A stretch of 64,000 nt of DNA, from positions 868,001 to 932,000 of the forward strand of contig NC_091471.1 in assembly GCF_036971445.1 (NCBI RefSeq), in the 5' to 3' direction. This document shows, piece after piece, positions 15,246 through 60,090 of this stretch. Below the pieces are notes generated by a model that did not search any database, was not told the origin of the DNA, and was given only the letters and a program-made list of their open reading frames with translations. Origin of the DNA: Narcine bancroftii. Lineage: Eukaryota. Every line of letters begins with the position of its first letter. The first letter of the stretch is position 1. The translations under genes were made by a program, and so were the position numbers.

Positions 15246-16925
15246 TCACTTGCCGCCAGAGACCAGCCTCTCCTTGGCGTGAACCCGCTGGTGTGAACTC
15301 AGGCCGGAGGGCTGAGAGAACCCCTTCCCACACAGGGAGCAGGTGAACGGTTTCTCCCCAGTGTGAACCCGCTGATGTGTCTGCAGGCTGGAGGGCTGAG
15401 AGAACCCCTTCCCACACAGGGAGCAGATGAATGGTTTCTCCCCAGTGTGAACCCGCTGGTGTGTCTGAAGGTCAGAGGGCCGAGAGAACCCCTTCTTGCA
15501 CAGAGAGCAGGTGAACTGTTTCTCCCCGGTATGAACCCACTGGTGTGCCTGCAGGCCAGAGGGCCGTGAGAATCCCTTCCCACAAAGAGAGCAGGTGAAC
15601 AGTTTCTTCCTGGTGTGAACTCTCTGGTGCCTCAGTAAGTTAGAGGATCTAGTGAATCCAATCCCACACAGGGAGCAGATGAATGGTTTCTCCCCCGTGT
15701 GACTCCGCTGGTGTACTTTCAGATCAGAGGACTGAGTGAACCCCTTCCCGCACTGTGAGCAGGTGAACGGTTTCTCCCCAGTGTGAACCCGCTGGTGTGC
15801 CTGCAGGTTGCAGGGCCGAGAAAACCCCTTCCCACAGAGGGAGCAGATGAATGGTTTCTCCCCAGTGTGAATCCGCTGGTGTACCCGAAGGCCAGAGGAA
15901 TCAGAGAACCCCCTCCCACACAGGGAGCAGTCAAATGGTTTCTCCCTGGTGTGAACCCGCTGATGTGCTTGCAGGCCAGAGGGCCGAGAGAACCCCTTCC
16001 CACATAAGGAGCAGGTGAATGGTTTCTCCCCAGAGTGAACCCGCTGGTGTACTTGCAGGCTGGAGGACTGAGAGAAGCCCTTCCCACACAGGGAGCAGGT
16101 GAATGGTCTCTCCCCAGTGTGAACTCGCTGGTGAGCCCGAAGGCCAGAGGGATCAGAGAAACCCCTCCCGCACAGGGAGCAGGTGAACGGTTTCTCCCCG
16201 GTGTGAATTCTCTGGTGGACCCGCAGGCTGGAGGATCGAGAGAACCCCTTCCCACACACACAGCATTTAAAGCCTCTCTCCCCAGAGTGAATATTCTGGT
16301 GCTGCAGGAGGCTGGAGGACTGGGTGGACGGACTCTCCCCAGGGGGAACACAGCCCTTCCCACAGATGCGGTAGGTGAACGGACTCTCCCCAGGAGGAAC
16401 ACAGGCCTTCCCACAGACGCAGCAGGTGAACGAACTCTCCCCAGGGGGAACACACCCCTTCCCACAAACGTGGTAGGTGAACGGACTCTCCCCAGGAGGA
16501 ACACAACCTTTCCCACACACGCGACAGGTAAACGGACTCTCCCCAGGGGGAACACACCCCTTCCCACACACGTGGCAGATGAACGGACCCTCCCCAGGGG
16601 GAACACACCCCTTCCCACATACGCGGCAGGTGAACGAACTCTCCCCAGTGGGAACACACCCGTACCCCTCCAAGTCCTTGGAGGTTTGAAAGCTCTTCCC
16701 ACAGTTGGAGCAGGGGGATGGGCTCCCCCTAGTGGGGACACACTGTTGTTGCAGCAGTGCGTCAGAGCTGGCAAATCCCTCCCCACACTCAGAACAGGGG
16801 AATGGTGGGTCCCCAGGGTGAGCACAGGGATGTGATTCCAGCAAGTCCACAGGAAGCCCCTCCTCACCACACGCTTCACTTTGGAGTGTTTTATCTTCAG
16901 TATCATTGGTCACCTGACCCTCCAT
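15246..16925 (-). CDS. Tandem C2H2 zinc-finger protein ZNF-B (12 canonical fingers, C2HC-type N-terminus, about 6.5 x 17-aa Cys-rich repeat)
   Basis: Uninterrupted ORF from ATG 16925 with TGEKPF-linked fingers. The N-terminus is paralogous to ZNF-A and ZNF-C. Confidence 0.92.
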   Translation of the reverse strand: MEGQVTNDTEDKTLQSEACGEEGLPVDLLESHPCAHPGDPPFPCSECGEGFASSDALLQQQCVPTRGSPSPCSNCGKSFQTSKDLEGYGCVPTGESSFTCRVCGKGCVPPGEGPFICHVCGKGCVPPGESPFTCRVCGKGCVPPGESPFTYHVCGKGCVPPGESSFTCCVCGKACVPPGESPFTYRICGKGCVPPGESPSTQSSSLLQHQNIHSGERGFKCCVCGKGFSRSSSLRVHQRIHTGEKPFTCSLCGRGFSDPSGLRAHQRVHTGERPFTCSLCGKGFSQSSSLQVHQRVHSGEKPFTCSLCGKGFSRPSGLQAHQRVHTREKPFDCSLCGRGFSDSSGLRVHQRIHTGEKPFICSLCGKGFSRPCNLQAHQRVHTGEKPFTCSQCGKGFTQSSDLKVHQRSHTGEKPFICSLCGIGFTRSSNLLRHQRVHTRKKLFTCSLCGKGFSRPSGLQAHQWVHTGEKQFTCSLCKKGFSRPSDLQTHQRVHTGEKPFICSLCGKGFSQPSSLQTHQRVHTGEKPFTCSLCGKGFSQPSGLSSHQRVHAKERLVSGGK

Positions 16926-17116
16926 GTCAGCCAATCAGCTGAAGTCCAGTACACACACTTAACGGATGTAGGGATTCTCCGTGCGGTGATCTCTGGGATT
17001 CTAATCAACCGAGATATCTGGTTGATACTATCATCCCGAGGAATCCAGTCAGAGGGTCAGACCACAATGTGGCGTTGTCTGAAGCTTCCTGTCTGGAAAC
17101 GCGCCGCTTTCTTAAC

Positions 17117-17155
17117 CCTGTGGAGAGAAGATGGTGGAGTGAGAGGGAGCAAGGC
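17117..17155 (-). promoter_or_regulatory. Splice acceptor of the ZNF-B coding exon
   Basis: Minus strand reads CCCTCTCACTCCACCATCTTCTCTCCACAG|GG; the exon starts at 17117. Confidence 0.7.
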
Positions 17156-17319
17156 ATTCTCTACAGCCAATGTTCCAGGACAACACACCCTGAAGGCATG
17201 GCCAGAAGGATGAGAAACTGTGGAGTGCTTGAACCGTGAGGAGGATGAGACAAGTAGACACATGATGTCAGAGCCAAAACTCCCCCTCCCACAATCAATT
17301 CTCACCACCTTTCTCCTGT

Positions 17320-17510
17320 CCTACCATCTCTATTCAATTATTACCATTTGTCTGATGGTCTGTCCTCTCCCCCCTGCCTTTTCTTCCCTTCTCCCCAGCT
17401 TTTTAATCCAGGCACCTGTCTACTTTTTTACTCCTATTGGGAAGAAGGGCTCAAGCCTGAAACATTGGTTATATACCTTTACCACCTCTGGACGCTGAGA
17501 GACCTGCTGA
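17320..17510 (+). mobile_element. Penelope pLTR fragment with decayed hammerhead-like motif
   Basis: GAAGAAGGGCTCAAGCCTGAAACATTGGTTATAT...GACCTGCTGA. Confidence 0.6.
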
Positions 17511-17769
17511 CATCATGCATTTAGATGGAGACCCTGAGAAGTCCTCGGATGTTTAACCCACCCACCCACCAGCTGCCAGGACTCCAATTAGACCCCCCGT
17601 AAATGGGTTGGAGAATGAGCCAGGGAAACCCCATTTTTGCTGACACATTTCTCGTGGTCCAAGCTGAGTCACTGATTTCTCTTTTCTTTCAAACATTCCG
17701 CCAGGCCTTGCCGAGTTCACCAGAATACTCCGAGCAGGTTAAATGAAACAACATGATTGTGACTAGTTT

Positions 17770-18100
17770 AACCACCAGAGGAAAAGAAACCAGGAGACGT
17801 AACAGAGATTCTGAGAGGCAACGAGCACTTTTTCCCCAGGGTGGGAGTAGCCAAGATCAGAGGAAGACTGTACAAAGTGAAGGGAGGGAAGTTGAGGGGA
17901 AACATCAGGGGTACGTTTTTTACCCTGAGAGTGGTGGGGGCCTGGAATGTCTTGCCAGGGATTGTGGTGGAGGCTGGAACATTGGGGACATTTAAGAGAC
18001 TCTTAGACAGGCACATGGATGGAAAAAAACAAAGGGTTATGGGGCTGAGTTTCCTATCTTTACATAGGTCAGCACAACGCCGAGGTGTTGTAATGTTCTA
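17770..18100 (+). mobile_element. CR1 3' fragment
   Basis: FFTLRVVGAWNVLPGIVVEAGTLGTFKRLLDRHM. Confidence 0.8.
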
Positions 18101-18104
18101 TGAG

Positions 18105-20330
18105 GAGGAGGGAAAGAAAGAGAATGTTCCAGAACATTGGAGGAACTCAGCAGATCACGCAGCATCCATAGGAAGTAAAAGGTAAACAACGTTAGGGGCC
18201 TGAGCCCCCCCCCGGCTCACATATCAGGTAAACGCCTGAATAAAGAGGTGGGGGGAGGAACACAGGGTAAAACGTTAGAGGATCCACGTGGAGGGGGAGA
18301 AGCTGAGAAGGGATGGGGCGAGGACAGGACTGAGAAGGGGATGCTCTGACAGGAGATGGAGAGAAGGGGCTGGGGATGTAGGGAAGGAGATAGAAGAGGA
18401 GGGAAAGAGAGAGAATGTTCCAGAATGTGTTGAAAAAGATAAAGGTGGATAAATCTCCGGGACCGGACAAAATATTCCCAAGGACACTCAGGGAGGCTAG
18501 TGGACAGATAGTGGGACCATTAACAGAGATATTTAGGATGTCACTGGCCACGTGGGTAGTGCCAAAGGATTGGAGGGTGGCGCATGTGATTCCGCTGTTT
18601 AAGAAAGGGTCCAAATGTAAACCTGGAAATTATAGGCCCGTGAGTCTGACGTCTGTGGTGGGTAAGTTGATGGAAAGTGTTCTGAGGGATGGTATTTACA
18701 AATATTTGGAGGTACAGGGATTGCTAGGGAGTAATCAGCATGGTTTTGTCAGGGGTAGATCATGCTTGACAAACCTGATTGAGTTTTTCGAGGGGGTTAC
18801 AAAAAAGGTTGATGAAGGGAAAGCTGTGGATGCTGTCTATTTAGACTTTAGTAAAGCTTTTGACAAAGTTCCTCACAGGAGGTTAGGAAAAAAGGTGGAG
18901 GCATTAGGTATAAATGAGGAGGTAGTGAAATGGATTCAGCAATGGTTGGATCGAAGGTGTCAGAGAGTAGTGGTAGAAAATTGTTTGTCCAATTGGAGGC
19001 CGGTGACTAGTGGAGTTCCTCAGGGATCGGTCCTGGGTCCACTATTGTTTGTTATATATATTAACGATCTGGAAGCAGGGGTGGAGAATTGGATAAGCAA
19101 GTTTGCGGATGACACAAAGATTGGTGGTGTTGTGGACAGTGAGGAAGATTATCGTAGATTAAAAGGTGATTTAGGAAGGCTGGAGGTGTTGGCTGAGAAA
19201 TGGCTGGTGGAATTTAATACAGATAAGTGTGAGGTGTTACATTTTGGAAAGGCAAATCTAAATAGGTCATATGCATTAAATGGTCGGCTATTGAGATGTG
19301 CAGAGCAACAAAGGGATTTAGGAGTTGTGGTAAATAGTTCCCTCAAGGCTGATACTCAGGGAGATGGTGTGGTGAAGAAGGCATTTGGAATGTTGGCCTT
19401 CATAAATCGGAGTATTGAATTCAAGAGTAGGGAGGTTATGATGAAATTGTACAAGGCATTGGTGAGGCCAAATTTGGAGTACTGTGGACAGTTTTGGTCA
19501 CCAAATTATAGGAAAGATATAAACAAAATAGAGAGAGTGCAGAGAAGGTTCACGAGAATGTTGACAGGATTTCAAGGTTTGAGTTACAGGGAAAGGTTGT
19601 ACAGACTGGGGCTTTTTTCTCTCGAGCGTAGAAGATTGAGAGGGGACTTGATAGAGGTGTTTAAGATTTTAAAAGGGACAGACAGAGTCAACGTGGATAG
19701 GCTTTTTCAAATAAGAGTGGGGGAGATTCAAACTAGAGGGCATGGTTTAAGATTGAAGGGGGAAAATTATAAAGGGAACATGAGGGGAAATTTCTTTATG
19801 CAAAGGGTGGTAGGGATGTGGAATGAGCTTCCGACAGAGGTGGTCGAGGCGGGATCATTGGTTACATTTAAGGAAAGACTGGATAGTTACATGGATAGGA
19901 GAGGACTGGAGGGGTATGGACCGGGTGCTGGTCAGTGGGACAAGGAGGGTGGGGATTTGTTACGGAATGGACTAGTAGGGCCGAACTGGCCTGTTCTGTG
20001 CTGTAAGTGGTTATATGGTTATATGGTTAACGTTGGAGGAACTCAGCAGGTCACGCAGCATCCATAGGAAGTAAAAGGTAAACAACGTTAGGGCCCTGAG
20101 CCCCCCGTCACTTATCAGGTAAACCCCTGAATAAAGAGGTGGGGGGAGGAACACAGGATAGAACATTAGAGGATGTACGTGGAGGGGGAGAAGCTGAGAA
20201 GGGATGGGGCAAGGACAGGACTGAGAAGGGGATGCTCTGACAGGAGAGAGATAGCAGAGGGAAAGAGAGAATGTTCTGGAATGTTGGTTCCCTTTACTCC
20301 CTATGCAGTTTCTCCAGCACGTCTGTGCAT
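18105..20330 (-). repeat. Tandem pLTR-derived units of about 290 bp (18105-18425 and 20029-20330) split by a CR1 insertion
   Basis: GAGAATGTTCCAGAA-[C/A]..TTGGAGGAACTCAGCAG.TCACGCAGCATCCATAGGAAGTAAAAGG is repeated, and the CR1 sits at the unit junction. Confidence 0.75.
18426..20028 (+). mobile_element. Young 5'-truncated CR1 LINE with an open RT frame
   Basis: 550-aa ORF containing [31 protein letters not shown] and FADD, with an (ATGGTTAT)-type tail. Closely similar to the copy at 62.6-64 kb. Confidence 0.95.
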
Positions 20331-20619
20331 TTGCTGCAGGTTCCAGCGGCACCAGCCCGCATGCTGTTGGACGCTGCATCTGTCAATCTCCTCATAGGGT
20401 GGGGCTAACAGAAACAGGTGGAACTGATCGGCTGGTGGGCAGCATGGTCTGTGACCCCATTTCCTGTTGGGAAATTGTATATGCCTTTTAAAGTTGGGAA
20501 AATTCAGCAGGTCAAAGATAAAGATTCACAATCAAGTTCGGAACCTGGTCACCCTCTCAGCCCCCAATCACCACCACGTGTCCCATTCTCCCCATCATAC
20601 CCCCTCACACCTGCACAGC

Positions 20620-21640
20620 CGGAGGGGGAGATGCTGGAGGAACCCAGGAGGTCTGGCAGCGTGCACAGGAGGTAAAGATACATCACCAACATTTTGGACC
20701 TGACACTTTCCACAATGTGTGTCAAAAGTAGGCAGCCCCTGAATTAAAAGGCTGGGGAGAAGGGAAGAAATGGCAGGGGGAGGAGGCCAGAGCTACAGAC
20801 AAAAGTTGTTAAATAGATATGGATGGGAGGAGAGGAGAGAGGGGAGGGGGGCCTGCCTCTGTGAATGCAGAGCTGATACAAATGAGTACGAATAGGGTCA
20901 AGTGGGGCAGAGTTTGAGTAAAGGAGACATGGGATGGGTGGCTCATGGAAACTGGAGAGGTCAAAGTTAATGCCAACCAGTTGGCGGGTGCCTGGAATAA
21001 ATACAAATTTGCAGGTGATCTCAGTCTGGCAGTGCACGAGACATGAACCGACATGTCAGCAAGGGATAGGGCAGGGAATGAAATGGAGAGAGTGGCCACT
21101 GGGAGGTCAACGCAAGAGACAGAGCTCAGGTGCTCAAAAGAAGTGATCTCCCAGTCTGCACCCAACGGGAGCACAGAATGTAGTAGATCCACAAGTGAAA
21201 CGATGCTTCGGTTGTTAGGACTGTTTGGGGCCCCGAGTGGTGGTGAGGGAGGAGCTCTGCATGCAAGTGGAGTATCTCCCACAGTCACAGGTGTGGGTGT
21301 CAAGGGTGGGCGAGGGGTGGGAAGGGAGAAGTGGACAAGGGAGTCACGGAGGGAGCAGACCCTGTTGAAGGTGGAGATGGAAGGAGCAGGAAAGATGTGT
21401 CTGGTAATGGGATCACCTAGAAGGTGGCAGAAATGGTGGAGGATCATTTGTTGGATGTGACGGCTGGTGGGGTAGTAGGTGAGGACTGTGGGAATCTCGT
21501 CCTTCTTACACATGGGGGTAGAGGGGGCCAGGGTAGATGTGCGGGTAATGGAGGATATGCCGGTGAAGATCAATCGATGGGGAAGGCACATTGTTTGAAG
21601 AAGGAAGACATCTCTAAAGATCTGGTATAGAAGACCTAGC
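20620..21640 (-). mobile_element. Penelope-like element 3' part and pLTR
   Basis: VLTYYPTSRHIQQMILHHF..L..DPITRHIFP.P....F.R..SLRDSLVH, paralogous to 57670..58110. A pLTR lies at about 20620-20760. Confidence 0.75.
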
Positions 21641-21919
21641 ATTGGGAACAGACTTTAATGTGTTCTGTGGTGAGTGGCCATATCATGTGCCTGTTTCGGG
21701 AGCTCCGGAGGTTGTGCTGCTTAGATTGCGGGGCACTGTGGTGGAGGGCAAGTTTGGTTGGGGAGGTCCTCAGGTCTCCTGCCATTGCGGGGATTTTTTT
21801 CATCGTTCACTGTGTCTGTGGACCCTGGTAGCATTTGGGACGGCGGGGGTGGCAGACACATCCTCATGCAAAGTCATCTTCTTCCTCCTCCTGGCATTGG
21901 CATAGCTTTCGGGCTCCTG

Positions 21920-22220
21920 TGGATTGAGAACAGTGTGGCAGTTTCTTCACTCAAGCTACCAGACTTTTAATACCCAGAGTCTATTATATTGTAACTTGTC
22001 TCTGCTGTGCCTGTGGACTCATTTTTAAAATTAATTACTGTACTATTTGCAGTTTTATTCGCTTTATGTAGGTTGTAGTCTAAAGTAACAACAGTGCAGT
22101 CTTGTGTTGTCTTACACTGGATTTGTGTAGTCTCATGCTGTATGTCGCACCATGGTTTGGAGGGACGCTGTCTTTATTTTTTAACTGTGTACTGCATTTG
22201 CTATTTGGTTTTAAAATGAC
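21920..22220 (+). mobile_element. Rex/Babar-type LINE 3' tail fragment
   Basis: T-rich 3' UTR ending AATAAAGGCTACGAACTTGA. Confidence 0.35.
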
Positions 22221-22754
22221 AAATAAAGGCTACGAACTTGAGATGCAACGGAGACTGAGGAACTGAGAGAGAGAGGAATACAGGGGTCCACAGAACTCCA
22301 AATAACAGCATTACTGTGGGACAGGCACTGGTCGAGGCATTTTAAAGGACATTCAGGCAGCTACTTGCTGCTGCATCTGGAAATAAGGTCACACAGACGG
22401 TGCTTTGGAGGTCAAGAACAAGACCAAAATCTTCCAGTTGCAGCCATTTTTATTCACTGTCCATCAAGGTCCAAGTCAGACAGGGTCCATCCGTATTAGC
22501 CAGACCAGCAAGTACAAAGGGGAAGTGACCCAGGGGATCTGATGCAGTTTAGATGAAAAATCCGATGGAACAGATGCAGCAGGTCGACAAATGCACGGAG
22601 AGCTGGAGCTGCAAGGAACATCCCCATCGGAACAACAATCTGGACCCCAATCGTCGACCCCACCCCCAAACTGGAGGGTCAACACCTTATATTCCATCCC
22701 CACAGTCTCTTACCAGAATGCATGAACATTGACTTCCAATTTTAGTTTACAGAG

Positions 22755-23960
22755 GGACATAAGAAATAGGAACAGGAAGAGGCCCATCGAGCCTGCTCTG
22801 CCAAGCAACAAGATCATGGCTGCTCTGATAATTAGCTCATCTCCGCCTACCTGCCTTTTCCCCACATGTAGAAATCTATCCAACCTTGTCTCAAATATAT
22901 TCACTGGTCACCTCCACTGCCTCAAGGGGCAGCGATTTCCACAGGTTCACCAACCTCTGTGAAAAGAAGTTCCTCCTCGTCTCCATTTTAAATCTACTAC
23001 CCTGAATTTTGAGGTCGTGTCCCCTACTTCTGGTCTTCCCCCACCAATGGGAACAACTGACCTACCTCTATCTTAACAATGCCTTTCATCATTTTATGTT
23101 TCTTTAAGATCCCCTCTCATTCTTCTAAATTCCAGCAAATAGCATCCCAAAAGATTGGCCACCCCCTCATCCCTGGAATCAATGTGGTGAACCTCCCCTG
23201 CACCACCTCCAAAGCCAGGACATCCTTCCTCATGTAAGGAGACCAGAACTGCGCCCAGTTCTCCAGATGCGGCCTCACCAGGACCTTGTACAGTTACAGC
23301 AGAACCTCCCTGCTCCTCAACTCAATCTCTCCAGCAATACAGTCTAACATTCCATTTGTCTTCCTGACAGCCTGCAAACCAGCCTTTTGTGATTCATGCA
23401 CAAGCCCTCCCAAGTCCTGCACAGCATTTATAGGTAAATAATATTCTGATGTTCCATTCTTCCTCCCACATTGGACAACCTCACATTGTACTCCTTCTGC
23501 TAGACCCTTGCCCCCTCACTTAAACTATCTACATCTCTTTGCACAGTATTCTCCGCATGATTTGCTTTGCCACTCAATTTAGTGTCAAGAGCAAACAGAT
23601 CCACTACACTCTGGTTTAAGAATACCGTGAACAGTTGCAAGGCCAGCACAGACCTCTGCGGCACCCCGCTCACCACCAATTGCCAACTAGAGAAACACCC
23701 CTGCACCCCAACTCTCTGCTTTGCTTTAGTTAACTACCCTCTACCTCTGCTAAAACATTGCCCCCAACTCCATGCATCCTTATCTTCTGTAATAGTCTTT
23801 TATGCTGCACCTTATCGAACGCCTACCCAATAGCCAGATAAACAACGACCATCTGCTCCCCTGTATCTACCACGTTCATTATATCTGAGGATGTATCAGA
23901 TGTAAATTGTCAAACAGGACCTGCCTTTGCTGGATCCTTCCTGCATCTGCCTGATGGATC
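22755..23960 (-). mobile_element. Old CR1 LINE
   Basis: SGVPQRSVLALQLFTVFLN and other decayed CR1 motifs on the minus strand. Confidence 0.8.
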
Positions 23961-23984
23961 CACTTCACTTCAGATACCTCGATA

Positions 23985-26450: not shown

Positions 26451-26459
26451 TTGGGAGCC

Positions 26460-28485: not shown

Positions 28486-28599
28486 CAACCAGTGCCCAGT
28501 GACCATTTTCCACCATGCCCTGCCACCAGCAGGGCCTTTTGTTCCCATCATTATGTTGATTAAGCCCTTAGTGAGGGTTTCACCCCCACCCCTCACACA

Positions 28600-46930: not shown

Positions 46931-47099
46931 ACTAGTGGAGATTGGTCACTGGTCTCAAGTCACTGGTGGGCATTGTCCACAGGTCCACAAACTGAGAAGG
47001 GAGATTTCAGAATTAGATGGAAAGTGTCAGTTTAAAATGGGGTCTGGAGGGGATATGGGGAGGCTGCATTTATGGGCCACATTCACCCTGGAAGCTGAT

Positions 47100-48755: not shown

Positions 48756-49299
48756 AAATTATAGCATCACGGGCAGTGGTCGATGTGTTTTACAGGCAGC
48801 TACATGCTGTTGATCTGGCCTCCCTGCGTCTGCATGGTGTTACGTATTAGACTAGCAGCAACAGAAATTTTTATTGTTAATTATTAATAACACACATCTT
48901 GCTTTAAACGTAACTAACTTAACCCCACTATGTGCAAGTGTGTGTATGTGGCAAAATCAAAACCATTACAGTTCAGGTAAAGAGATGATTTTAAAGTTCA
49001 GTTTTGTTTTGAAACTCAGATTCTTTAAATTGTTGCTCAACAGCAATTATAGAGTAGGCGAGAGGCATCAGACTTCTCAACTCATGAGATTCTTGTAGAG
49101 TAGTTTTCAGAGAATTGTTTCTTCATACGAATGATTTTCCCCTCTTGCATGGAGATTTCAGTACTTGTTTTTCTTCCACGATGATTTCACAAACCCAGGC
49201 AAGGGTTTAATGAAGTGCCCCTGCAGAAATGGACACAGAAAGACTGCCCTCTCTCTCTTAAGGAGACAGTCAGAAATGGTCATTCTCTTTTCTCTAATG

Positions 49300-51400
49300 G
49301 AGAAATTGCAAAAATCGTTTATACTGGTTTGGCATAAAAATAAACCAAAAAAGGTGACTCAACCGTGGATAACAAGGGAAATTAGAGACAGCATTAGGTC
49401 CAAAGAGAGAGCATATCAATTGGCCAAAAAAAGTACCACAACCGAAGACTGGGAGCAGTTCAAGATGCACCAAAGGAGGACAAAGGGATTAATCAAGAGA
49501 GCAAAAATAAATTACGAAAGTAAGCTTGCGGCAAATATAAAAACCGACTGCAAAAGCTTTTATAAATATGTCGAGGAAAAGATTAGTGAAATCCAGAGTA
49601 GGTCCCTTGCAGTCGGAATCAGGGGAATATATAATGGGGAATAAGGAAATGGCAGACCAATTAAATTCTTACTTTAGTTCTGTTTTCACAAGAGAGGATA
49701 CAAATAACCTCCCAAGGATGTTGGGAAACATAGAGACTAATGCAAGGGAGGAACTGAAAGAAATCAGTATCTCTAACGACATGGTCTTGGGGAAATTGAT
49801 GGGATTGAAGGCAGATAAATCCCAAGGGCCTGATAATCTACATCCTAGGGTACTCAAGGAAGTGGCCATTCAGATAGCAGATGCTTTAAGAATTATTTTC
49901 CAGAACTCGATAGACTCAGGATCAGTACCCATGGATTGAGGGTAGCTAATGTTACCCCACTATTTAAAAAGGGGGGTAGAGAAAAAGCGGGGAATTATCA
50001 GCCGGTGAGCCTTACATCAGTAGTGGGCAAAATGATGGAATCCATTATTAAGGATGTAATAGTGGAGCATATGACTAGCAGAGAAGGGATCGGACGGAGT
50101 CCACATGGATTTACAAAAGGTAAATTGTGCTTGACAAATCTATTGGAATTCTTTGAGATGGTGACAGGTAAAATAGATGGGGGAGAGCCAGTGGATGTGG
50201 TGTACCTGGACTTCCAAAAGGCCTTCGATAAGGTCCCGCATAAACGACTGGCTTCCAAAATCAAGGCTCATGGGATTGGGGGCAAAGTATTGATGTGGAT
50301 TGAGAACTGGCTGGCAGGTAGAAGACAGAGAGTTGGGATAAATGGCTCGTTTTCTGAGTGGCAGGCGGTGACCAGTGGGGTGCCACAGGGATCTGTACTG
50401 GGACCCCAGCTGTTCACAATTTACATTAATGATCTGGATGAGGGGATTGGATGTAATATCTCCATATTTGCAGATGACACTAAGCTAGGAGGGGTTGTGT
50501 GCACGGAAGAGGGGGTCAGGAAGCTCCAGTGTGATTTGGATAAATTGAGGGACTGGGCAGATACATGGCAAATGCACTACAATGTGGATCAATGTGAGGT
50601 TATCCACTTTGGTCATACAAACCGGAGGGCAGATTACTATTTGAATGGCAATAGATTAAGAGATGGGGAAGTGCAGAGAGACCTAGGGATACTTGTACAC
50701 CAGTCTCTGAAGGCAAGCATGCAGGTACAGCAGGCGGTTAAAAAGGCAAATGGTATGTTGGCCTTCATATCAAGAGGGTATGAGTCTAGGAACAAGGATA
50801 CCTTACTGCAGCTGTACAGGGCCTTGGTGAGACCACACCTGGAGTATTGTGTGCAGTTTTGGTCACCTTATCTAAGGAAGGATGTTCTTGCAATGGGGGG
50901 AGAGCAGAGGTGATTCACCAGGCTGATACCTGGAATGGCAGAAATGACTTATGAGGGAAGATTGCGCAAATTGGGATTGTACTCGCTGGAGTTTAGAAGA
51001 TTGAGAGGGGATCTCATAGAGACATATAAAATTCTGGCAGGACTGGACAGAATGGATGCAGAAGGGATATTTCCAAGGATGGGAAAATCCAGAACCCGGG
51101 GCCATGGTTTGAGGATAATAGGCAAACCATTTAGGACTGAGATGAGGAGGAATTTCTTTACCCAGGGGGTGGTGAATCTGTGGAATTCATTGCCACAGAG
51201 GGCAGTAGAGGCAGGTTCATTAAATATATTTAAGAGGGAATTAGATCTATTTCTTCAGTATAAGGGTATTAAAGGTTACGGAGAGAAGGCGGGGACGGTG
51301 GTACCGAACTTTAAGATCAGCCATGATCTCGTTTAATGGCGGAGCAGGCTCGAAGGGTCGAATGACCTACTCCTGCTCCTATCTTCTATGTTTCAATGTT
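49300..51400 (+). mobile_element. CR1 LINE (5'-truncated, a few stops and frameshifts)
   Basis: ORFs 49568, 49936 and 50935 carry the RT motifs ([26 protein letters not shown]) and a CTATGTTT-type tail. Confidence 0.93.
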
Positions 51401-51569
51401 TTCAAAAATCACTTATTCTGTGTTCTCATTTGACCAGAAGTAACATGTTACAGTACCTTTCTGATACTGTATCTTCAATCCACTGTGACTTACAGGATGG
51501 TCAAGCACCTTCTGGTCTTAAAATGACTGTTTTCAGTAATATCTTCTCTGAAAATGTCTTTAATCATGT

Positions 51570-54500
51570 GACATGACATCATTGCTGTATTTAAAGTCCA
51601 TTTCATAGTTACTTCACATCTATATGCTACAAGCATATGGTTTCATCTCTTCCAAAAGTTTGAGTGGATCTGTCCAAATTGTCTGCTGACCAGCCACCAG
51701 AATGGTTGTGTATATAAACAGACGTTTCTGAGCAAACACTCATTTTTTTAGAATTTTCAATGGAGAACAGTCATAAGACTTTTATGACTTTTTACAGCTT
51801 TGAATTGGCAGACACCGCTATATCTCTAAGCAAATAGGCATCCAGCAGAACAACGACTAAGCAGACTTTACAGCTTCAAAATTGGTTTCTCTCAGAGTGT
51901 AATTGTGTGTCTGTGTACCCCTGTGTCAAAACCCACAAATTAACTTAACTACAAATATATATTTTATAACTAAAGATTAGTAATAACACAATTCCATCAT
52001 ATCTCTTTCCAACAAGGACCATTTTACACTTTTTAAAGGTCATATTTTTAAATTGCAATCTACCAATTATCTGGTAGATTTTATATACTAAGATTATACA
52101 ATAGAAAGATAACATTTTTTCCAACATTGCACATTCAACATCTTGAATGGCAATCACATTATCTTTGCCTTTAATATTAATTATCATTAAATCATATTTT
52201 TGCAAAATTAAACTCCAATTGAACAAGTCTATTTTTATTTTTCATTTTACTCAAAAACACTAATGGATGATGATAAGTGTAAATCATTAATTGGTTCTCT
52301 CGCCTTGCAAATGTAAACTTCAAAATGTTGCAGAACCCATAATTCTTTTTCAATAGTAGAATCATTCTTTTAGTGTTGATTTAATTTCGTAGATACGTAA
52401 GCCACTGGATGCTCAATATTATCAGTCATTTTTTTGTAATCGAGCAGTTTCTGTCGCTTCATCACTAGCATCAACTGCTAAAGAAAATGCCTTTTCAAGG
52501 TCAGGTGAGTTAAGCACCGACTTGTGACATAAAATAGCTTTTAGTTTGTCCAAAGCTCCTGACAAATAAACTTTTCACCCTTTAGAAGGTTAGTTAAAGG
52601 TATGGTGATCTCAGCAAAGTTTTTATAGAACATTCCTAAAAACTCCTCTAACAGCTTTCTTACCCATGGGTATAGAAAACGATCTGAACTTTCGTCTGGA
52701 CAGGCACCAATGTAGCATGACCAAATTCGCTTTGGCTAAATTAACAGTAAAGTTTGCTCTGAAAGTTTATTGAACAATTTCTCTAGTGCTTGTCAAGTAT
52801 CAAGTATCATTCCCTGTGACCAAATCATCATTATAAGCATCTGTATTTAAGGTGCCAGAATCAGTTATTAAAGATGCAATCGCAGTACATTTGGAGAGTT
52901 GTGGTATCATCGCACGGAGTCAGCATGGTTTTGTGAAGGGGAAATCATGTCTGATGAACCTCATTGAGTTTTTTTGAGGATGTAACCAGTAGAGTGAATA
53001 GGAGGGCATCAGTGGATGTGGTATATCTGGACTTCAGTAAGGCATTTGATAAGATTCCATGCAGAAGACGAATGTACAAACTTAAAAAGCACGGTATAGG
53101 AGGAATGGTATTATGGTGGATAGAGAATTGGTTGATGGACAGAAAGCAAAGAGTAGGTATAAATGGGTTCTTTTCAGAATGGCAGTCAGTGAGTAGTGGG
53201 GTACCGCAGGGCTCCGTGTTGGGGCCACAGTTGATTACAATATATATCAGTGACTTGTATGTGGGAATAAATAGCAATATCTCCAAATTTGCAGACGACA
53301 CAAAGTTGGGTAGCGGGGTTGGCTGTGTTGACGATGCTATGAGGGTGCGAAGTGATTTGGACAAGTTGGGCGAGTAGGCCAAGATGTGGCAGATGCAATA
53401 TAATGTGGATAAATACGAGGTTATCCACTTTGGAGGTAAGAACAGGAAAGAGGTAAGACTTTTATGGTATCTGTTTAGGAAAAGGGGAGATGCAGAGAGA
53501 CTTGGGTGTTGCTGAGCATCAGTCATTGAAAGTGGGCGTGCAGGTGCAGCAGGCGGAGAAGAAGGCACATGCTATGTTGGCGTTCATAGTGAGAGGATTT
53601 GAGTCCAGGAGTAGGGAGATCCTGCTGCAGCTGTACAGGTCCTTGGTGAGACCACACCTGGAGTACTGCATGCAGTTTTGGTCTCCTTATCTGAGGAAGG
53701 ACCTTCTTGCCATGGAGGGGGTGCAGAGAAGTTTCACTGGGGTGATACCAGGGATGGAAGGACTTGGATATGAAGAAAAGTTGGATAGACTGGGCTTGCA
53801 TTCTCTGGAATTTAGAAGATTGAGGGGGAATCTTATAGAAACATAAAATTCTGAAGGGATTAGACAGACTAGACGCAGGAAGGTTGTTTCCAATGCTGGA
53901 AAAAAACAGAACCGGGGTCACAGTTTAAGGATAAGGGGAAAGTTTTTTAGGACTGAGATGAGGAAAAATTTCTTCTCTGAGGATGGTAGATCTGTGGAAT
54001 TCTTTGCCACAGGCAGTAGTTGAGGCGTCAATATTTAAGAGAGTTGTCCCTTGTGGTGATGGGGTATGGGGAGAAGGCAGGATCCGGGTACTGATCAGCC
54101 ATGATCGTATTGAATGGCAGTGTAGACTTGAAGGGCCAAATGGCCTACTCCTGCATCTATTTTTCTATGTATGTTCTGAATCTTGAATCACAGAGTTTAT
54201 CATCCTTTGAAATGTTCCTGGAGCATTTTTCATTCCAAATGGTAAATTGTTGCATTCATATAAACCTGTCGGTGTAACAAATGTGGACATTTCTCTACCT
54301 CTCTCTGTTGAGGGAACACACCAATAACATTTTAATAAATCTATCTTCATTAGAAATTTAGCTTTTCCACACAATCATTCACCCTAGGAATAGGATAAGC
54401 ATCTTTCACATTAACCTTTCTATAATGTGCAAAATCTAATGATTCCATCTGATTTAGGTAGCAGGTGAACTCCAATCTGAGTTAGAACTTCTAATAATAT

Positions 54501-55520
54501 CATTATTTAACATATATTCAATCTTGATCTACCAGTTTGAATTTTAAAATTAACTATTTCATTTGTTCCTTTTCCTGGGGCTACAAATGAACCAACTTCC
54601 CATCCAAATTCTGAAAAGTACTTGAATTAGATAGACGAACTGAAGCAATATTTTCTTTTAAGTGACCCTCACAAGAATCAGCTTGTAAAGTTCATGATCC
54701 TTAGACCCTTCAGTTTTATCCACAACCAAAACCTCTGGTGAAAACTGCTGGCTAACATCTAAATTCTCAAAATAAAGTTTTAACATGTTGGCATGGCAAC
54801 TGTGTTTTACATCTCCTATCAGATGTTTTAACCATGTAATTGACTTCATCTACCTTGGATTATATCTCATACAGTCCTGAAAATTTTGCTCTAAGAGGTT
54901 TAGAATTTATTGGCAATAGAATTAACACTTTACCCCCGGTTTAAAAATTTTTGGTCTTTCATTTTTATCATACCAGACTTTCATTTTATCTTGAGCCACT
55001 TTCAAATTCTTCTCAGCTATCTTTATGGACTTTCTGCAAACAATCTTGAAACTTTGAAATATTATTCAACTGCACATCCTTATTAATCCATTGTTCCTTC
55101 AACAACATTAAAGATCCTCTAACTTGATGTCCAAATACCAACTCAAAAAGACCAAAACCTAATGATTCTTGTACAGACTCTCTCACTGCAAATAAAAGCA
55201 AATGGGCACCTTCATCCCAATCCTTCTGATTCTCCAGACAATAGGTTCTCATGATTTTTGGATTGATTGTAATCTCTCCAAAGCCCCTTGAGATTCTGGA
55301 TGATATGCAGATAATGTGATCTGTTCAGCTCTCAATTTATAAACTAACTGCTGAAACAATTCTGACATAAAATTACTCCCCTGATCTGACCAACTAAAGT
55401 GAAAATTTTTAAGAGCACTTGACACACTCTTTGCTTTAATATTTTTAAGTGGTATTGCTTCTGAGTCATTGAGCTCCCCACCCGCAGCACTAACATCAAT
55501 AGTCTTCATGCGATATAAGC
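51570..55520 (-). mobile_element. Gmr1-like Gypsy retrotransposon remnant (integrase upstream of RT/RNase H)
   Basis: Minus-strand order: integrase (SDQGSNF, AYHPESQGALER, DWDEG..LLLFAVRE..QESLGF) at 55.0-55.5 kb, RT (KIDLLKCYW.VP, LPFGMKNAPGTFQR) at 54.2-54.4 kb, RNase H end (WSLILQKYDL.I..IKGKDNVIA) at about 52.2 kb. Confidence 0.78.
52850..54172 (+). mobile_element. CR1 LINE nested in the RT of the Gmr1-like element
   Basis: ORFs 52964 and 53490 carry CR1 RT and C-terminal motifs; the element interrupts the Gypsy RT right after FQRMINSVI. Confidence 0.9.
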
Positions 55521-55629
55521 AGCATGTTTGTTACATTGGAGGGAGGGGGAAGTGTGATGGCTGCACATGGAGGAGGAAGGTAGGTACCACCAACTATCTT
55601 CCCCCTCCTGAGCCCTTCAAAGTATTGAT

Positions 55630-55850
55630 ATTAAAAAAGGAAAATCTAAACCCATGACCAAGAATGAAGCTGTTTGGCCAAAAATTCTTATCAGAGTGGC
55701 AAATTACCTCATTAGCCTGCACTTCTACCTTCATATCAAATCAAAGATTATAGAAGTAATTCAAAAAGGGTCCCCACAGTGTTTGAAAATTTACTTTCAA
55801 ATCAGAAATTGAACTCCAATCTTCTCTAATTTCAATATAAAGAGCAGGGT
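55630..55850 (-). mobile_element. L1-clade 3' end fragment
   Basis: FQTLWGPFLNYF resembles the terminal F...W.PF motif of L1 ORF2. Confidence 0.5.
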
Positions 55851-56285
55851 CTGGAGCAAGAGCATTCCTTTGATCTAATTGTTGCAGGTTGGCAAAACCC
55901 CAGATGCTGCCATAAGGTTGAGAAATCAAGTGCTACCCCGAAGGCATACCAAGCATCCATATAAGGCTCTAGTAAGGGCAAACAATTCATAATTGGGCTG
56001 GAGGCAGGTCTGAGATAGTGACAGGTTTCTGAAGTTGGGCATTAGTGGAAGATGGGGAGTGGGGATGAGTGGGTGGGAGCTGGGTGTGATGACATCATAA
56101 AGGGAGGTCACGTGCTTCAGTTACAGTTTGTGTCTCCTTTTGAAGGATGGTTAGATGGAACGGTTTCTGGACCACTCTGCATTGTGGGTAAAAATGCTGG
56201 CATCTTCTCTCTGTTTACCAGCTTAAAAAGTTTGCCTCTATTTTATCTGGTAGGTAAAATGCAAAATTCTGCAAACACTGGTTGA

Positions 56286-56376
56286 AGTAAAAACACGACG
56301 CTGGAAAAACTCATCAGGTGAAACAGTAAATTTCACTGTTTGACCTGCTGAAGTTTTCCAACATTGTGTTTTTACT
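56286..56376. repeat. About 90-bp imperfect palindrome made of two Penelope pLTR ends
   Basis: AGTAAAAACAC..GCTGGAAAAACTCA.CAGGT.AAACAGT, loop, ACTGTTTGACCTGCTGAAGTTTTCCAACATTGTGTTTTTACT. Confidence 0.75.
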
Positions 56377-56704
56377 CTATTTTATGTTGTCTCTTCTCCC
56401 CTTGATGTGCGTTCCGATGGTTTGGAAGCTGCATATCTTGTTGAAGTGGGAATGCAATTTATGTGCGTACAGTCGAGGCTCTTTGGACAGAGCAGTTTCT
56501 GGACAGTTAAGGATTCTGGGTATTAATGTAGTCATTGACTTCCTAAACAAAAACTACTGCTTAAAAATCTGAAATAATTCCTGCTGTCTCTTTCCTTGTC
56601 ACATTTTTACTAAAATGTCGTTCACAGAACGAGACCCCATATAACAGTAAATCCTGAGTTCATAATAAGTTCCTTGCTCTGTAAGAAGTAAATCACAAAT
56701 ATTG

Positions 56705-58372
56705 TGGTTGAAGTTAAAACACAAAATGTTGGAGAAGCTCAGCAGGTCAAACCGTGTCCTTTATGTAACAAAGGTAAAGAAACATAAGCAACGTTTCGGG
56801 CTTGAGCCTTTCATCAAGGTATGAGAAAATGCCAGCAGGCATCTGAACAAAAGAATGGGGGGGGGGGGTGGGTGGCAGAGGCAGGAGATGATGGATGGAG
56901 GGAGGAGGCAACAGCAATGAGGGGGAGGGGGATGGTAGGGCTGTGTGGGTGAAAGAAATGGAATGGGGGAGGGCAAGAAAAGGCAGCAGGTTTAATGGAA
57001 AGCAGTGAAGTCAATGTTAATGCCACGTGGTTGTTGGGGGCCCAGGAGGAAAATAAGGTGTTGTTCCTCCAATCTGTGGGTGGTTAGGGTGGGACAGTAC
57101 ATAAGGCGATGGATGGATGGATGAGCGTGGGAGGGTGACTCAGAATTGAAGTGGATGGCCACTGGGAGGTCGCTGTGGTTGCAGACAGAAGAGCTGCTGA
57201 GCAAAGTGACCTCCCCGTCTGAGACTGATCTCTTCAATGTAGAGAATGCCATAAAGGGTGCACTGGATGCAGTAAATAGGTTTTCTGGATATACAGGTAA
57301 AGTGTTAAAGTTCCAGTCCAGAATTTCCAAAATGTCTGCCTTCTTCCACAAATCTCGCTTCCCTTCCACCATTATCAATTCAGCCCTCACCCACATCTTC
57401 TCCATTTCCCTCTCATCTGCCTTGGCCCCCTCTGCCCCCAGATGCAACAACAATAGAATCCCCCTCATCCACCCATATAACAGTTTACGGCATGGAAACA
57501 GGTGTATCGGGCCTTGAAGTCCACACCGGTTCACTCAAACAACTCCGCCTATTCACCGCCCATAACCCTCCAATCCCCTCTTATCCATATATATATATAA
57601 AGCCTCCTCTTAAATGAAAGAAATAACTCTGCCTCAACTATTTCCCAACCAGCATTTGCATCCAACACATTGTCTAGGAATTTCCGGCACTTACTACCAC
57701 CACCAGACACATTTCCCTCCCCACCCCTCTCCGCCTTCTGCAGGGATCACTCCCTCCATGATTCCCTCGTGCATTCATCCCTCCCCACCCCTCACACTCC
57801 CAGCACCTTCCCCTGTGCCTGTAGGAGGTGCAATACTTGTGTCTATACCTCCTCCCTCACCACGGTCCGGGGCCCCAATCAGGCCTTTCACATGAACCAA
57901 CACTTCACTTGTACATCCAGAGGACTTACTGCATCTGGTGCTCCCTTTGTGGTGTTCTCTACATCGGAGAGACCAGTCACAGATTGGGAGATCACTTCGC
58001 TCAGCACCTCTGCTCTGTTCGCAACCACAATGACCTCCCAATGGCCAATCATTTCAATTCCGAGTCACTACCGTGCTCACACGGCTTTATGTAGTACTGT
58101 CCCACCCTGACCACCCGTAGATTGGAGGAACAACACCTTGTTTTCCCGTCTGGGCCCCCTCCAGCCACGGTATGACCACCAACTTCACTGCTTTCTTTGA
58201 AACCTGCTGCCTTTTTCCCCTCTTCCTTTCCTGCTGGTCCAGTTCTTTCACAACCTACTCTTTTGTTTAGACTCCTGCCAACATACCTTGATGAAAGGCT
58301 CAAGCCAAAATGTTGGTTATGTATCTTTGGATTGTTTGACCTGCTGACCTTCTTCAGCATTTTGTGTTTTTA
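56705..58372 (+). mobile_element. Penelope-like element with GIY-YIG endonuclease remnant and inverted 5' pLTR; small CR1 tail insert at about 57477-57640
   Basis: Plus strand: CACRRCNTC linker, YCIWCSLCGVLYIGET..RLGDHFAQH, NHFNS. 56705-57210 is an inverted copy of the 3' end (HFNSE...RLEEQHLIF.LG..QP.GINIDF). Confidence 0.82.
56780..56828 (-). ncRNA. Minimal type I hammerhead-ribozyme-like motif in a Penelope pLTR
   Basis: Minus strand reads CATACC-TTGATGA-AAGGCTCAAGCCC-GAAACGTT-GCTTATG. The core CUGANGA/GAAA has a C-to-U variant, and stem II is palindromic. Confidence 0.55.
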
Positions 58373-58562
58373 CTCCTTGCTCACATTTGTTGCCTCTTCT
58401 TTCTTCCATTGAAACAAATCACACTTGTTTTTCTGTGCTAAATTTCACCCATGTGCCTACATGTCCATGTTGATCCTTCCCACAATTCAAGACACTTGTC
58501 ATGTTGCTGCTGGCCATGCCTCCAGAGTATTGTCCTGGAACATTGGCTGCAGAGAATGCCTT

Positions 58563-58596
58563 GTTCCCTCTCACTCCACCATCTTCTCTCCACAGG
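58563..58596 (+). promoter_or_regulatory. Splice acceptor of the ZNF-C coding exon
   Basis: CCCTCTCACTCCACCATCTTCTCTCCACAG|GG; the exon starts at 58596. Confidence 0.7.
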
Positions 58597-58773
58597 GTTA
58601 GGAAAGCAGCGCGTTTCCAGGCAGGAAGCTTCAGACAACGCCACGTTGTGGTCTGACACTCTGACTGGATTCCTTGGAACCGTGGTATCAGCCAGATATC
58701 TCGGTGGATTAGGAACACGGAGAATCCCTACACCCACTGAGTGCATGAACTGGACTTCAGCTGAGAGGCTGAC

Positions 58774-60090
58774 ATGAAGGATCAGGTGACCAATGATATG
58801 GCAGATAAAACACTCCAAAGTGAAGCGTGTGGTGAGGAGGGGCTTCCTGTGGACTTATTGGAATCGCATCCCTTCGCTCACCCTGGGGACCCACCGTTCC
58901 CCTGTTCCGAGTGTGGGGAGGGATTCCCCAGCTCTGACGCACTGCTGCAACACCAGTGTGTCCCCACTAGGGGGAGCCCATCCCCCTGCTCTGACTGTGG
59001 GAAGAGCTTTCAAACCTCCAAGGACCTGGAGGGGCACGGGTGTGTTCCCCCTGGGGAGTGTCCGTTCACCTGTCACGTGTGTGGGAAGGGGTTTACCCAG
59101 TCCTCCAGCCTCCTGCAACACCAGAACATTCGCTCCAGGGAGAGAGGCTTTAAATGCTGTGTATGTGGGAAGGGGTTCTCTCAATCGTCGAACCTCCTGA
59201 CGCACCAGAGAATTCACACTGGGGAGAAACCGTTCACCTGCTCCCTGTGTGGGAAGGGGTTCTCTCACTCCTCCACCCTGCTGGCACACCAGTCAGTTCA
59301 TACCGGGAAGAAACCGTTCACCTGCTCCCTGTGTGGGAAGGGGTACTCTACGTCCTACAGCCTGCAGACACACCAGTGGGTTCACACTGGGGAGAAACCG
59401 TTCACCTGCTCACTGTGTGGGAAGGGGTTCTCTCGACCCTCCGGCCTGCAGGCACACCAGCGTGTTCACACTGGGGAGAAACCATTCACCTGCTCCTTCT
59501 GCAGGAAGGGATTCTCTCAGCCATCCGCCCTGCATGAACACCGACGGATTCATACTGGGGAGAAACCATTCAGTTGCTCCCTGTGTGGGATCAGATTCAC
59601 TCATTCCTCCAACATGCGGAGGCATCAGAGAATTCACTCTGGGAAGAAACCATTCACCTGCTCCCTGTGCGGGAAGGGGTTCTCTCGACCTTCTGACCTG
59701 CAAACACACCAGTGGTTTCACACCGGGGAGAAACTGTTTACCTGTTCCCTGTGTGGGAAGGGTTTCTCTCAGTTCTCCAGCCTGCAGGCACACCAGTGGG
59801 TTCACACTGGGGAGAAACCGTTTACCTGCTCCCTGTGTGGGAAGGGGTTCTCTCAGTCCTCTAGCTTGAGGGTACACCAGAGGGTTCACACCGGGGAGAA
59901 ACCATTCACCTGCTCTTTGTGTGGGAAGAGGTTCTCTCGGCTATCCGGCCTGCAGGCACACCAGCGGGTTCACACTGGGGAGAAACCATTCACCTGCTCC
60001 GTGTGTGGGAAGCGATTTTCTCATTCTAGCCATGTGCAGAAGCACCAGCGGGTTCACACCAGGGAGAGACCGTTCTCATCCACCAAGTGA
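58774..60090 (+). CDS. Tandem C2H2 zinc-finger protein ZNF-C (11 canonical fingers, two intact C2HC fingers, single 17-aa unit)
   Basis: 438-aa ORF with TGEKPF linkers and an in-frame TGA three codons upstream of the ATG. A decayed finger remnant follows the stop. Confidence 0.92.
   Translation: MKDQVTNDMADKTLQSEACGEEGLPVDLLESHPFAHPGDPPFPCSECGEGFPSSDALLQHQCVPTRGSPSPCSDCGKSFQTSKDLEGHGCVPPGECPFTCHVCGKGFTQSSSLLQHQNIRSRERGFKCCVCGKGFSQSSNLLTHQRIHTGEKPFTCSLCGKGFSHSSTLLAHQSVHTGKKPFTCSLCGKGYSTSYSLQTHQWVHTGEKPFTCSLCGKGFSRPSGLQAHQRVHTGEKPFTCSFCRKGFSQPSALHEHRRIHTGEKPFSCSLCGIRFTHSSNMRRHQRIHSGKKPFTCSLCGKGFSRPSDLQTHQWFHTGEKLFTCSLCGKGFSQFSSLQAHQWVHTGEKPFTCSLCGKGFSQSSSLRVHQRVHTGEKPFTCSLCGKRFSRLSGLQAHQRVHTGEKPFTCSVCGKRFSHSSHVQKHQRVHTRERPFSSTK

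What the first reader, a model, noticed from the sequence alone, without database searches (positions are those of the whole stretch)
15246..60090. Head-to-head ZNF gene pair built on a large inverted duplication with mirrored promoters
Seen: about 28600-34360 is the reverse complement of about 41090-46930 (unique promoter-like segment plus satellite). Each arm has an outward-facing donor (33932 minus, 41512 plus), and the paralogous ZNF-exon acceptors lie at 17117 and 58596. The implied introns are 16.8 and 17.1 kb but contain entirely different TEs outside the satellite. Inference: promoter, exon 1, satellite and coding exon form the duplication unit of this family. Inner arms look more alike than the outer satellite edges, consistent with arm-to-arm gene conversion homogenising the promoters while finger arrays diverge. 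Caveat: a 200-N gap sits just inside the left arm, so orientation is scaffold-dependent.
Basis: partly seen in the sequence, partly recalled or inferred. Interest (0 to 1): 0.7.

Follow-up and report, generated by a model that had tools for sequence, protein, structure and literature searches.

The report
Twin promoters of ray zinc-finger genes
Two neighbouring zinc-finger genes of what is likely an electric ray have almost letter-identical promoters and the same intronic repeat, although their coding exons differ by about a tenth and the rest of their introns is unrelated, likely because the promoter block was recently copied from one gene to the other, a known kind of event that an assembly gap here leaves unproven.

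Summary
The inverted pair is real in the assembly (28600-34360 / 41088-46930), but it is not one large mirrored duplication. Only 620 bp are collinear (6 substitutions, 99%); at least three of its 11 indels are errors in the right arm. About 125 bp of that block is a high-copy LINE stub. The remaining 5 kb per arm is a 102-bp minisatellite whose units are shared but in different order, with an 88% outer edge. The second exons are 88-93% alike (dS 0.17), and 11.5 kb of each intron shows no orthologous match. Contigs of RNA-guessed runs (one study) cover exon 1 and leave the genome at the predicted donor; their lengths fit splicing to both second exons, but the letters were not shown. Best reading: two old paralogues of a KRAB-less C2H2-ZNF cluster whose promoter and inner minisatellite were recently copied or converted between them (0.6). 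A false duplication at the 200-N gap stays possible (0.2), and the orientation is untested. Another promoter-like block lies between the arms. The scan noted similar inverted ZNF-promoter/satellite cassettes 64 kb further on (e1-8624775, unchecked). Known kind of event; interest 0.3.

The parts
1080..2685 (+). ZNF-A coding exon 2, third paralogue (475 aa, 11 canonical fingers); its promoter lies outside the window
15246..17117 (-). ZNF-B exon 2: 5' UTR plus whole CDS 16925-15246 (559 aa, 12 canonical C2H2 fingers, no KRAB hit)
17118..17208 (-). 91-bp acceptor stretch shared with ZNF-C (83 of 89 aligned bases) and ZNF-A; B-C homology ends here
17209..28599 (-). ZNF-B intron, TE-rich part with no orthologous match in the ZNF-C intron
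28600..33742 (-). Left GC-rich minisatellite, about 49 units of about 102 bp, with its own 857-bp and 541-bp higher-order repeats and an old, degenerate outer edge
33743..33931 (-). Start of intron 1, left copy (0 substitutions, 5 one-base indels against the right copy)
33932..34234 (-). Left promoter and non-coding exon 1: CpG o/e 0.75; CCAAT, three E-boxes, CRE-like and YY1-like matches (motifs recalled); 7-codon uORF; donor after 33932
34235..34360 (-). LINE stub shared with the right arm, cut at 34360
34361..34429 (.). About 70 bp found only on the left arm, with no other match in the window; contig end
34430..34629 (.). 200-N scaffold gap
34630..35700 (.). GC-rich 18-27-bp minisatellite at the start of the right contig
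35762..35900 (-). Candidate third first exon and promoter (CpG o/e 0.72, consensus donor after 35767) pointing into the gap; untested
35901..38256 (.). 30-bp minisatellite (80 copies) built of GC-box-like and CCAAT-like words
40350..41210 (+). High-copy LINE fragment whose last about 125 bp enter the shared block (Rex1/L2-like by recalled motifs; no Pfam hit in the three frames)
41211..41512 (+). Right promoter and exon 1 (2 substitutions against the left copy; its one-base indels are largely assembly errors); donor after 41512
41513..41706 (+). Start of intron 1, right copy
41707..46930 (+). Right minisatellite, about 46 units of the same 102-bp family in a different order
46931..58506 (+). 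ZNF-C intron, TE-rich part
58596..60090 (+). ZNF-C exon 2: 5' UTR plus whole CDS 58774-60090 (438 aa, 11 canonical fingers, no KRAB hit)

Best explanation
ZNF-B and ZNF-C are two-exon C2H2 zinc-finger paralogues whose 620-bp promoter/first-exon blocks are 99% identical while their second exons are 88-93% alike, likely because they duplicated long ago and the promoter plus inner minisatellite was recently copied from one onto the other by non-allelic recombination (gene conversion or a one-off replacement). Shown: the identity gradient, the shared but reshuffled minisatellite units, the lack of intron homology, and RNA-guessed contigs that leave the genome at the donor. Inferred: the old split (dS 0.17; satellite edge 12%); the 5-kb GC-rich arrays likely serve as the pairing substrate, so that exchange reaches the adjacent promoter and fades towards the outer edge; the introns likely lost homology through TE insertion, deletion and exchange of 5' cassettes among family members; the result would be two genes with one expression programme and different finger arrays. 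The head-to-head orientation is as scaffolded and was not tested.
For: Gradient: 6/612 substitutions in the block (0/189 intron start, 2/300 promoter and exon 1, 4/123 LINE stub) against 50/416 at the satellite edge and 50/552 in exon 2. Identity includes a LINE stub and intron, which selection on a promoter would not explain. Young units cross between arrays: longest left-right exact match 249 bp against 152 bp within the right array; a young left-type unit sits among old units at the right outer edge (R40). Outer flanks of the arrays are unrelated and the left LINE stub has its own breakpoint, unlike two alleles. Both bases at 33954/41490 occur as a pair of 54-nt contigs in run X8 (depths 46.9 and 73.1). 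In X1 the exon-1 contig ends 4 letters past the donor, exactly where exon 2 of B and C first differ; a k=31 simulation gives 285 aligned + 4 unaligned letters only for 'one exon 1 to both B and C' among three models. All three ORFs are intact with dN/dS 0.2-0.3 in the first 95 codons.
Against: The left copy ends 70 bp from a contig end at a 200-N gap and the right copy carries sequencing-type indels, both marks of false duplication (PMC9516828 passages). At 34118 the contigs of X1, X8 and X3 all show the right-arm base and none the left-arm base (contigs drop rare variants). The X8 contig lengths reject a clean 'left allele to B only, right allele to C only' model and fit a single locus with a heterozygous SNP as well as they fit two loci. 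The loose letters were not printed, so the exon-2 partner is inferred from lengths only, the runs are 'RNA' by a guess, and they come from one study. Complete loss of intron homology is more than dS 0.17 predicts, so the simple 'duplicate once, then convert' history is incomplete.
Confidence: 0.6

Rival explanations
1. False duplication: there is one promoter; the left contig was extended through the minisatellite into the other haplotype's (or a mis-phased) copy of the ZNF-C promoter and then broke, so the two 'arms' are alleles plus errors and ZNF-B's true promoter is missing or is the block at 35762-35900.
For: Gap next to the duplicate; 11 indels against 6 substitutions, with 3 of 3 testable indels wrong in the right arm; about 1% difference is within a haplotype range; left base at 34118 unseen in 3 of 3 covering runs; X8 contig lengths fit one heterozygous locus; gaps and erroneous k-mers mark false duplications (PMC9516828, PMC8081667 passages).
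Against: Outer array edges are 12% apart and flanks unrelated, so a chimera inside the array is needed. Unit order is not collinear even next to the promoter. The copies are inverted and 6.5 kb of other DNA apart, whereas the contig-boundary duplications described in PMC8081667 are tandem with a gap between. The left copy has its own 70-bp junction. The X1 branch point fits two second exons.
Confidence: 0.2
2. Inversion polymorphism: recombination between the two inverted arrays flips the spacer, so one promoter drives ZNF-C on one haplotype and ZNF-B on the other; the assembly joins one contig from each haplotype across the gap.
For: Inverted 5-kb arrays that exchange units are a substrate for inversion; one exon-1 sequence appears to branch into two second exons in X1; another promoter-like block at the other end of the spacer points into the gap.
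Against: The left copy should then continue into the same LINE as the right copy, but it diverges at 34360; the spacer's left end starts with a different minisatellite, not the 102-bp one.
Confidence: 0.08
3. One reading: promoter, exon 1, satellite, intron and coding exon were duplicated together as one large inverted block, and the introns were then refilled by different TEs.
For: Satellite edge (12%) and exon 2 (dS 0.17) give similar ages; a Penelope-like piece lies in the same sense near both acceptors.
Against: No intron match of 100 bp or more exceeds 73%; the Penelope-like pieces are 74% alike, no more than two copies within one intron (76%); arm identity of 99% covers only 0.6 of about 19 kb.
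Confidence: 0.08
4. Purifying selection alone keeps the promoters alike.
For: Substitutions are fewer in promoter, exon 1 and intron start (2 of about 487) than in the LINE stub (4 of about 125; Fisher p 0.018).
Against: Even the LINE stub is 97% and the intron start 100% identical, well above the selected coding region (93%); young satellite units are shared.
Confidence: 0.04

Closest known systems
Lineage-specific tandem C2H2-ZNF clusters: mammalian KRAB-ZNFs and cyprinid FiNZ-ZNFs (Wells et al. 2023, PMC10547256; passages read)
   Same: Clustered paralogues in TE-rich DNA, tandem finger arrays in one exon that diverge in number, order and contact residues; the paper also notes shared promoter architecture among zebrafish FZNF subsets.
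   Different: No KRAB or other effector-domain Pfam hit; whole CDS in exon 2 behind a non-coding exon 1; near-identical promoter plus intronic minisatellite between two members. The paper's main text has 0 occurrences of 'shark', 'chondrichth', 'cartilaginous' or 'gene conversion'; its supplements were not read.
Mammalian sex-chromosome palindromes with arm-to-arm gene conversion (PMC9122934; passages read; arm size and identity thresholds recalled)
   Same: Inverted paralogous DNA with very high identity attributed to conversion.
   Different: Here 99% identity covers 0.6 kb, the genes' coding exons lie outside the homogenised part, and the arms are mostly a non-collinear minisatellite.
False heterotype/homotype duplications in vertebrate assemblies (PMC8081667, PMC9516828; passages read)
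   Same: Gap beside the duplicate, contig end, error-type indels in one copy.
   Different: Inverted, separated by 6.5 kb of other DNA, with 12%-diverged outer edges and unrelated flanks; read depth untested.
Narcine bancroftii 'zinc finger protein 235-like' (P0001)
   Same: 73% identity over 89% of the first 100 residues of ZNF-C, E 1e-49; similarity extends into the 5' UTR part of exon 2 in another frame.
   Different: Automated name only; no genomic context available.

Membership tests
Tandem-array C2H2 (Kruppel-type) zinc-finger gene | Repeated C2H2 fingers with HTGEKP-type linkers in an open frame | tested here: met
   PF00096/PF13465 at E 1e-78 to 1e-94 for A, B and C; 11, 12 and 11 canonical fingers
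KRAB-ZNF | N-terminal KRAB domain | tested here: not met
   No KRAB family among Pfam hits at E<=0.01 for the three CDSs; exon 1 holds only a short uORF. Introns were not scanned for extra coding exons.
FiNZ-ZNF | FiNZ domain | not tested
   No FiNZ profile was used; no N-terminal Pfam hit other than zinc-finger models
Large palindrome / inverted segmental duplication | Collinear arms of many kb at about 99% identity that contain the genes (thresholds recalled) | tested here: not met
   99% over 620 bp only; arrays not collinear; 0% intron cover
Large palindrome / inverted segmental duplication | Inverted orientation on one molecule | not testable with these tools
Bidirectional (head-to-head) promoter | Two divergent starts sharing one promoter within about 1 kb (definition recalled) | tested here: not met
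   Two separate promoter copies about 7 kb apart, with a gap and unrelated DNA between
Non-allelic gene conversion tract | Local identity far above that of flanking paralogous sequence | tested here: met
   6/612 against 50/416 and 50/552; Fisher p 7e-15 and 2e-11
Non-allelic gene conversion tract | Outgroup shows paralogues within a species closer than orthologues between species, or shared polymorphism between copies | tested here: inconclusive
   No outgroup locus obtainable; both alleles at 33954 in X8 and contig lengths fit a shared allele but also one locus
False duplication | Gap between duplicates and erroneous bases in a copy | tested here: met
   Gap; 3 of 3 testable right-arm indels absent from independent contigs
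False duplication | Allele-level identity over the whole duplicate and shared flanks | tested here: not met
   Outer edge 88%, flanks unrelated, unit order different
False duplication | Haploid read depth, discordant pairs | not testable with these tools
   Only contigs were served; their depth is no copy number

The most novel reading that the evidence does not exclude
In rays, a KRAB-less zinc-finger family uses a GC-rich first-intron minisatellite as a recombination handle that swaps or overwrites whole promoter/first-exon cassettes between paralogues (at the extreme, an inversion that hands one promoter from ZNF-C to ZNF-B), so regulatory and DNA-binding halves of these genes evolve as separately shuffled modules.
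Probability: 0.15. Interest if true: 0.6.

Novelty: new member of a known kind. Interest (0 to 1): 0.3.

Why it matters
If both copies are real, this is a clean local example of promoter homogenisation between zinc-finger paralogues whose finger arrays diverge, in a cartilaginous-fish ZNF family that the papers I could search do not describe. It would make testable whether intronic minisatellites drive exchange of 5' cassettes in such clusters. The processes themselves (clustered ZNF birth and death, ectopic conversion, minisatellite turnover) are established, and a one-in-five chance of an assembly artefact remains, so the value is modest.

Tried and rejected
No listed run is on record as RNA ('no RNA holder listed'; 16 rows, best share 0.49). 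The first lay was swamped by the LINE, which hid most promoter rows; the second showed no letters for the 4-7-letter loose ends. Parts of the promoter and intron without contig cover (X7 covers only 34151-34215; no RNA-guessed cover below 33926) prove nothing alone. An exact 28-base promoter pattern found 0 matches in metagenome contigs. Look-ups of earlier findings by place and by sequence gave nothing. Five of ten paper searches returned 0 papers; they were multi-term and narrow, so they are weak evidence of absence. Rejected: (1) an open reading frame from the right exon-1 ATG to the donor, which depends on a base missing only in the assembly; (2) long ORFs inside the satellites, by-products of GC-rich repeats; (3) orthology of intronic TEs (65-74%, family level); (4) in-register orthology of fingers (nearest neighbours scatter across genes and positions; mean B-C 77%, within B 79%, within C 75%); (5) the donor match at 35767 as evidence by itself (6 matches in the window against 12.5 expected by chance). 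Pfam gave no hit for the frameshifted LINE and Penelope-like pieces, so those family labels are recalled from motifs.
Full report
Setting. The window is vertebrate DNA (52% GC, one 200-N gap at 34430-34629) with three intact C2H2 zinc-finger exons: A (1080-2685, +), B (17117-15246, -) and C (58596-60090, +). The best relative of the first 100 residues of C is a Narcine bancroftii 'ZNF235-like' protein (73%, E 1e-49; 2 hits among 14 candidates), so the animal is likely an electric ray; earlier notes on this genome say the same.

The inverted pair. Self-BLAST confirms inverted homology between 28600-34360 and 41088-46930 (99.9% cover of both). With satellites masked, one collinear block remains: 33743-34360 against 41706-41088, with 606 matches, 6 substitutions and 11 gap openings. 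By part: LINE stub 4 substitutions in 123 bases, promoter plus exon 1 2 in 300, intron start 0 in 189. The stub is the end of a very high-copy LINE that runs on to about 40350 on the right but is cut at 34360 on the left, where 70 unrelated bases lead to the gap. The promoter part has CpG o/e 0.75 and CCAAT, E-box, CRE-like and YY1-like matches (motifs recalled).

The satellite. Each arm holds about 5 kb of a roughly 102-bp, over 70% GC minisatellite (49 and 46 units), found nowhere else in the window. The left array has its own 857-bp and 541-bp higher-order repeats. Four unit types are exactly shared. After homopolymer compression 18 of 47 left units have an identical right unit and 9 of 42 the reverse, with no correlation of position (rho 0.22, p 0.53, n=11; 3 and 4 edge rows left out). 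The longest left-right exact match (249 bp) is longer than any within the right array (152 bp) but shorter than within the left (560 bp). The degenerate outer edges are homologous and 88% identical (366 of 416), beyond which the flanks are unrelated. So the arms are a patchwork of old edges and young, shared, reshuffled units, not a mirror.

The genes. The whole CDS lies in exon 2. B and C share 91 bp before the acceptor (83 of 89), the UTR (156 of 178) and the first 95 codons (265 of 285); dS is 0.17 for B-C, 0.24 for A-C and 0.29 for A-B, with dN 0.05-0.08 (about 63 synonymous sites, so rough). Fingers are not in register and differ in contact residues. No KRAB hit. Between acceptor stretch and satellite, 11.4 and 11.6 kb show no inverted match of 72% or more at E<=1e-10; a more sensitive search gives 21 HSPs, the 12 of 140 bp or more at 65-73%, several to multiple places. 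The one collinear candidate, a Penelope-like piece (label recalled), is 74% identical, no more than two copies inside one intron (76%).

Independent sequence. Sixteen runs hold part of exon C; none is on record as RNA, four are guessed RNA from one study. I laid 5 of the 16, as contigs. In X1 and X8 contigs cover exon 1 and stop aligning one base past the donor (that base matches the first base of exon 2), with 4 (X1) or 7 (X8, two contigs) unaligned letters; DNA runs have short pieces in the intron, the RNA-guessed runs none. On the left copy these contigs show no indel over 33931-34215, on the right 2-4 gaps and no substitution, so the right-arm indels at 41238, 41421 and 41487 are assembly errors, while the right-arm substitutions covered are real. 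X8 holds both bases of the 33954/41490 site as two 54-nt contigs. At 34118 all three covering runs show only the right-arm base. A k=31 simulation reproduces X1 exactly (285 aligned + 4) if one exon-1 sequence splices to both B and C, and not if it splices to C only or to A and C. For X8 it rejects 'left allele to B only, right allele to C only' and fits both 'left allele to B, right allele to B and C' and 'one heterozygous locus', each with a second acceptor. These are inferences from lengths; the letters were not shown, and the real assembler prunes graphs.

Between the arms. The right contig starts with another GC-rich minisatellite, then a CpG-rich stretch with a consensus donor after 35767 on the minus strand, then 80 copies of a 30-bp unit rich in GC-box-like and CCAAT-like words. 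The donor match alone is not above chance. If real, a third transcription unit points into the gap, so the two promoters are not simply back to back.

Mechanism. The most likely history is an old paralogue pair in a ZNF cluster (split at roughly 12-17% neutral divergence) whose promoter, exon 1 and inner array were recently copied between the genes, with the arrays as the pairing substrate (0.6). Shown: gradient, unit sharing, absence of intron homology, departure of contigs at the donor. Inferred: timing, direction, role of the array, co-regulation.

Comparison with what is known. It works like other lineage-specific ZNF clusters (PMC10547256, passages) but is not a KRAB-ZNF; it resembles palindrome arm conversion (PMC9122934, passages) but fails arm size and collinearity; it is not a bidirectional promoter; it meets two marks of false duplication (PMC8081667 and PMC9516828, passages) and fails a third. 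PMC8455134 (passages) mentions C2H2 families only in general; PMC11603059, PMC3032696 and PMC9668749 were seen as search listings only. No supplements were read; those of PMC10547256 may list chondrichthyan ZNF counts. Searches for the specific combination returned nothing. An unreviewed note on the window 64 kb further on describes two inverted ZNF-promoter cassettes and a family of about a hundred such promoters, many with tandem repeats (e1-8624775). I could not check it, and sequence look-ups did not link this promoter to it, but it suggests that the arrangement is common in this genome.

Verdict. Observation partly confirmed; interpretation partly supported; new member of a known kind; interest 0.3.

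Noticed in passing
window 35762-38300: Candidate third promoter: CpG-rich stretch with a minus-strand donor after 35767, next to an 80-copy 30-bp minisatellite with 45 GC-box-like and 61 CCAAT-like words, and an 18-27-bp minisatellite running into the gap. Could be a gene cut by the gap or an upstream promoter of ZNF-B.
   Followed up: partly
window 16323-16661 and 1520-1777: 51-bp tandem repeat inside the CDS of ZNF-B (6.6 copies) and ZNF-A (5.1 copies) encoding 17-residue truncated fingers with a CxxC pair but no histidines; ZNF-C has one unit.
   Followed up: no
window 33975-33952 (-) and 41470-41499 (+): A strong-context ATG inside the YY1-like motif of exon 1 opens a short uORF; the two alleles at 33954/41490 give 7 or 9 codons once the assembly indel is set aside.
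   Followed up: partly
window 2686-3300: ZNF-A has a stop at 2683-2685 followed by about 500 bp of decayed, frameshifted finger repeats.
   Followed up: partly
window 18133-20260 and 62601-64000: Two young copies of a CR1-type LINE (94% over 689 bp; 557-aa open frame with RVT_1), one inside the ZNF-B intron.
   Followed up: partly
window 8527-9877: 23-bp minisatellite of about 61 copies between the convergent ZNF-A and ZNF-B 3' ends, apparently inside a LINE fragment.
   Followed up: no
window 27846-28636: Reverse-transcriptase fragment (weak RVT_1 hit; Gypsy-like by recalled motifs) abutting the left satellite's outer edge through a short CA repeat.
   Followed up: no
window 56700-58374, 20631-21632 and 17308-17509: Penelope-like fragments (label recalled from a GIY-YIG-like peptide) in inverted arrangement near both acceptors; identity at family level only.
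   Followed up: partly
window 41088-46930: The right arm carries many one-base indels typical of unpolished long-read consensus, while the nearby ZNF ORFs are clean; frames read in this arm should be distrusted.
   Followed up: yes
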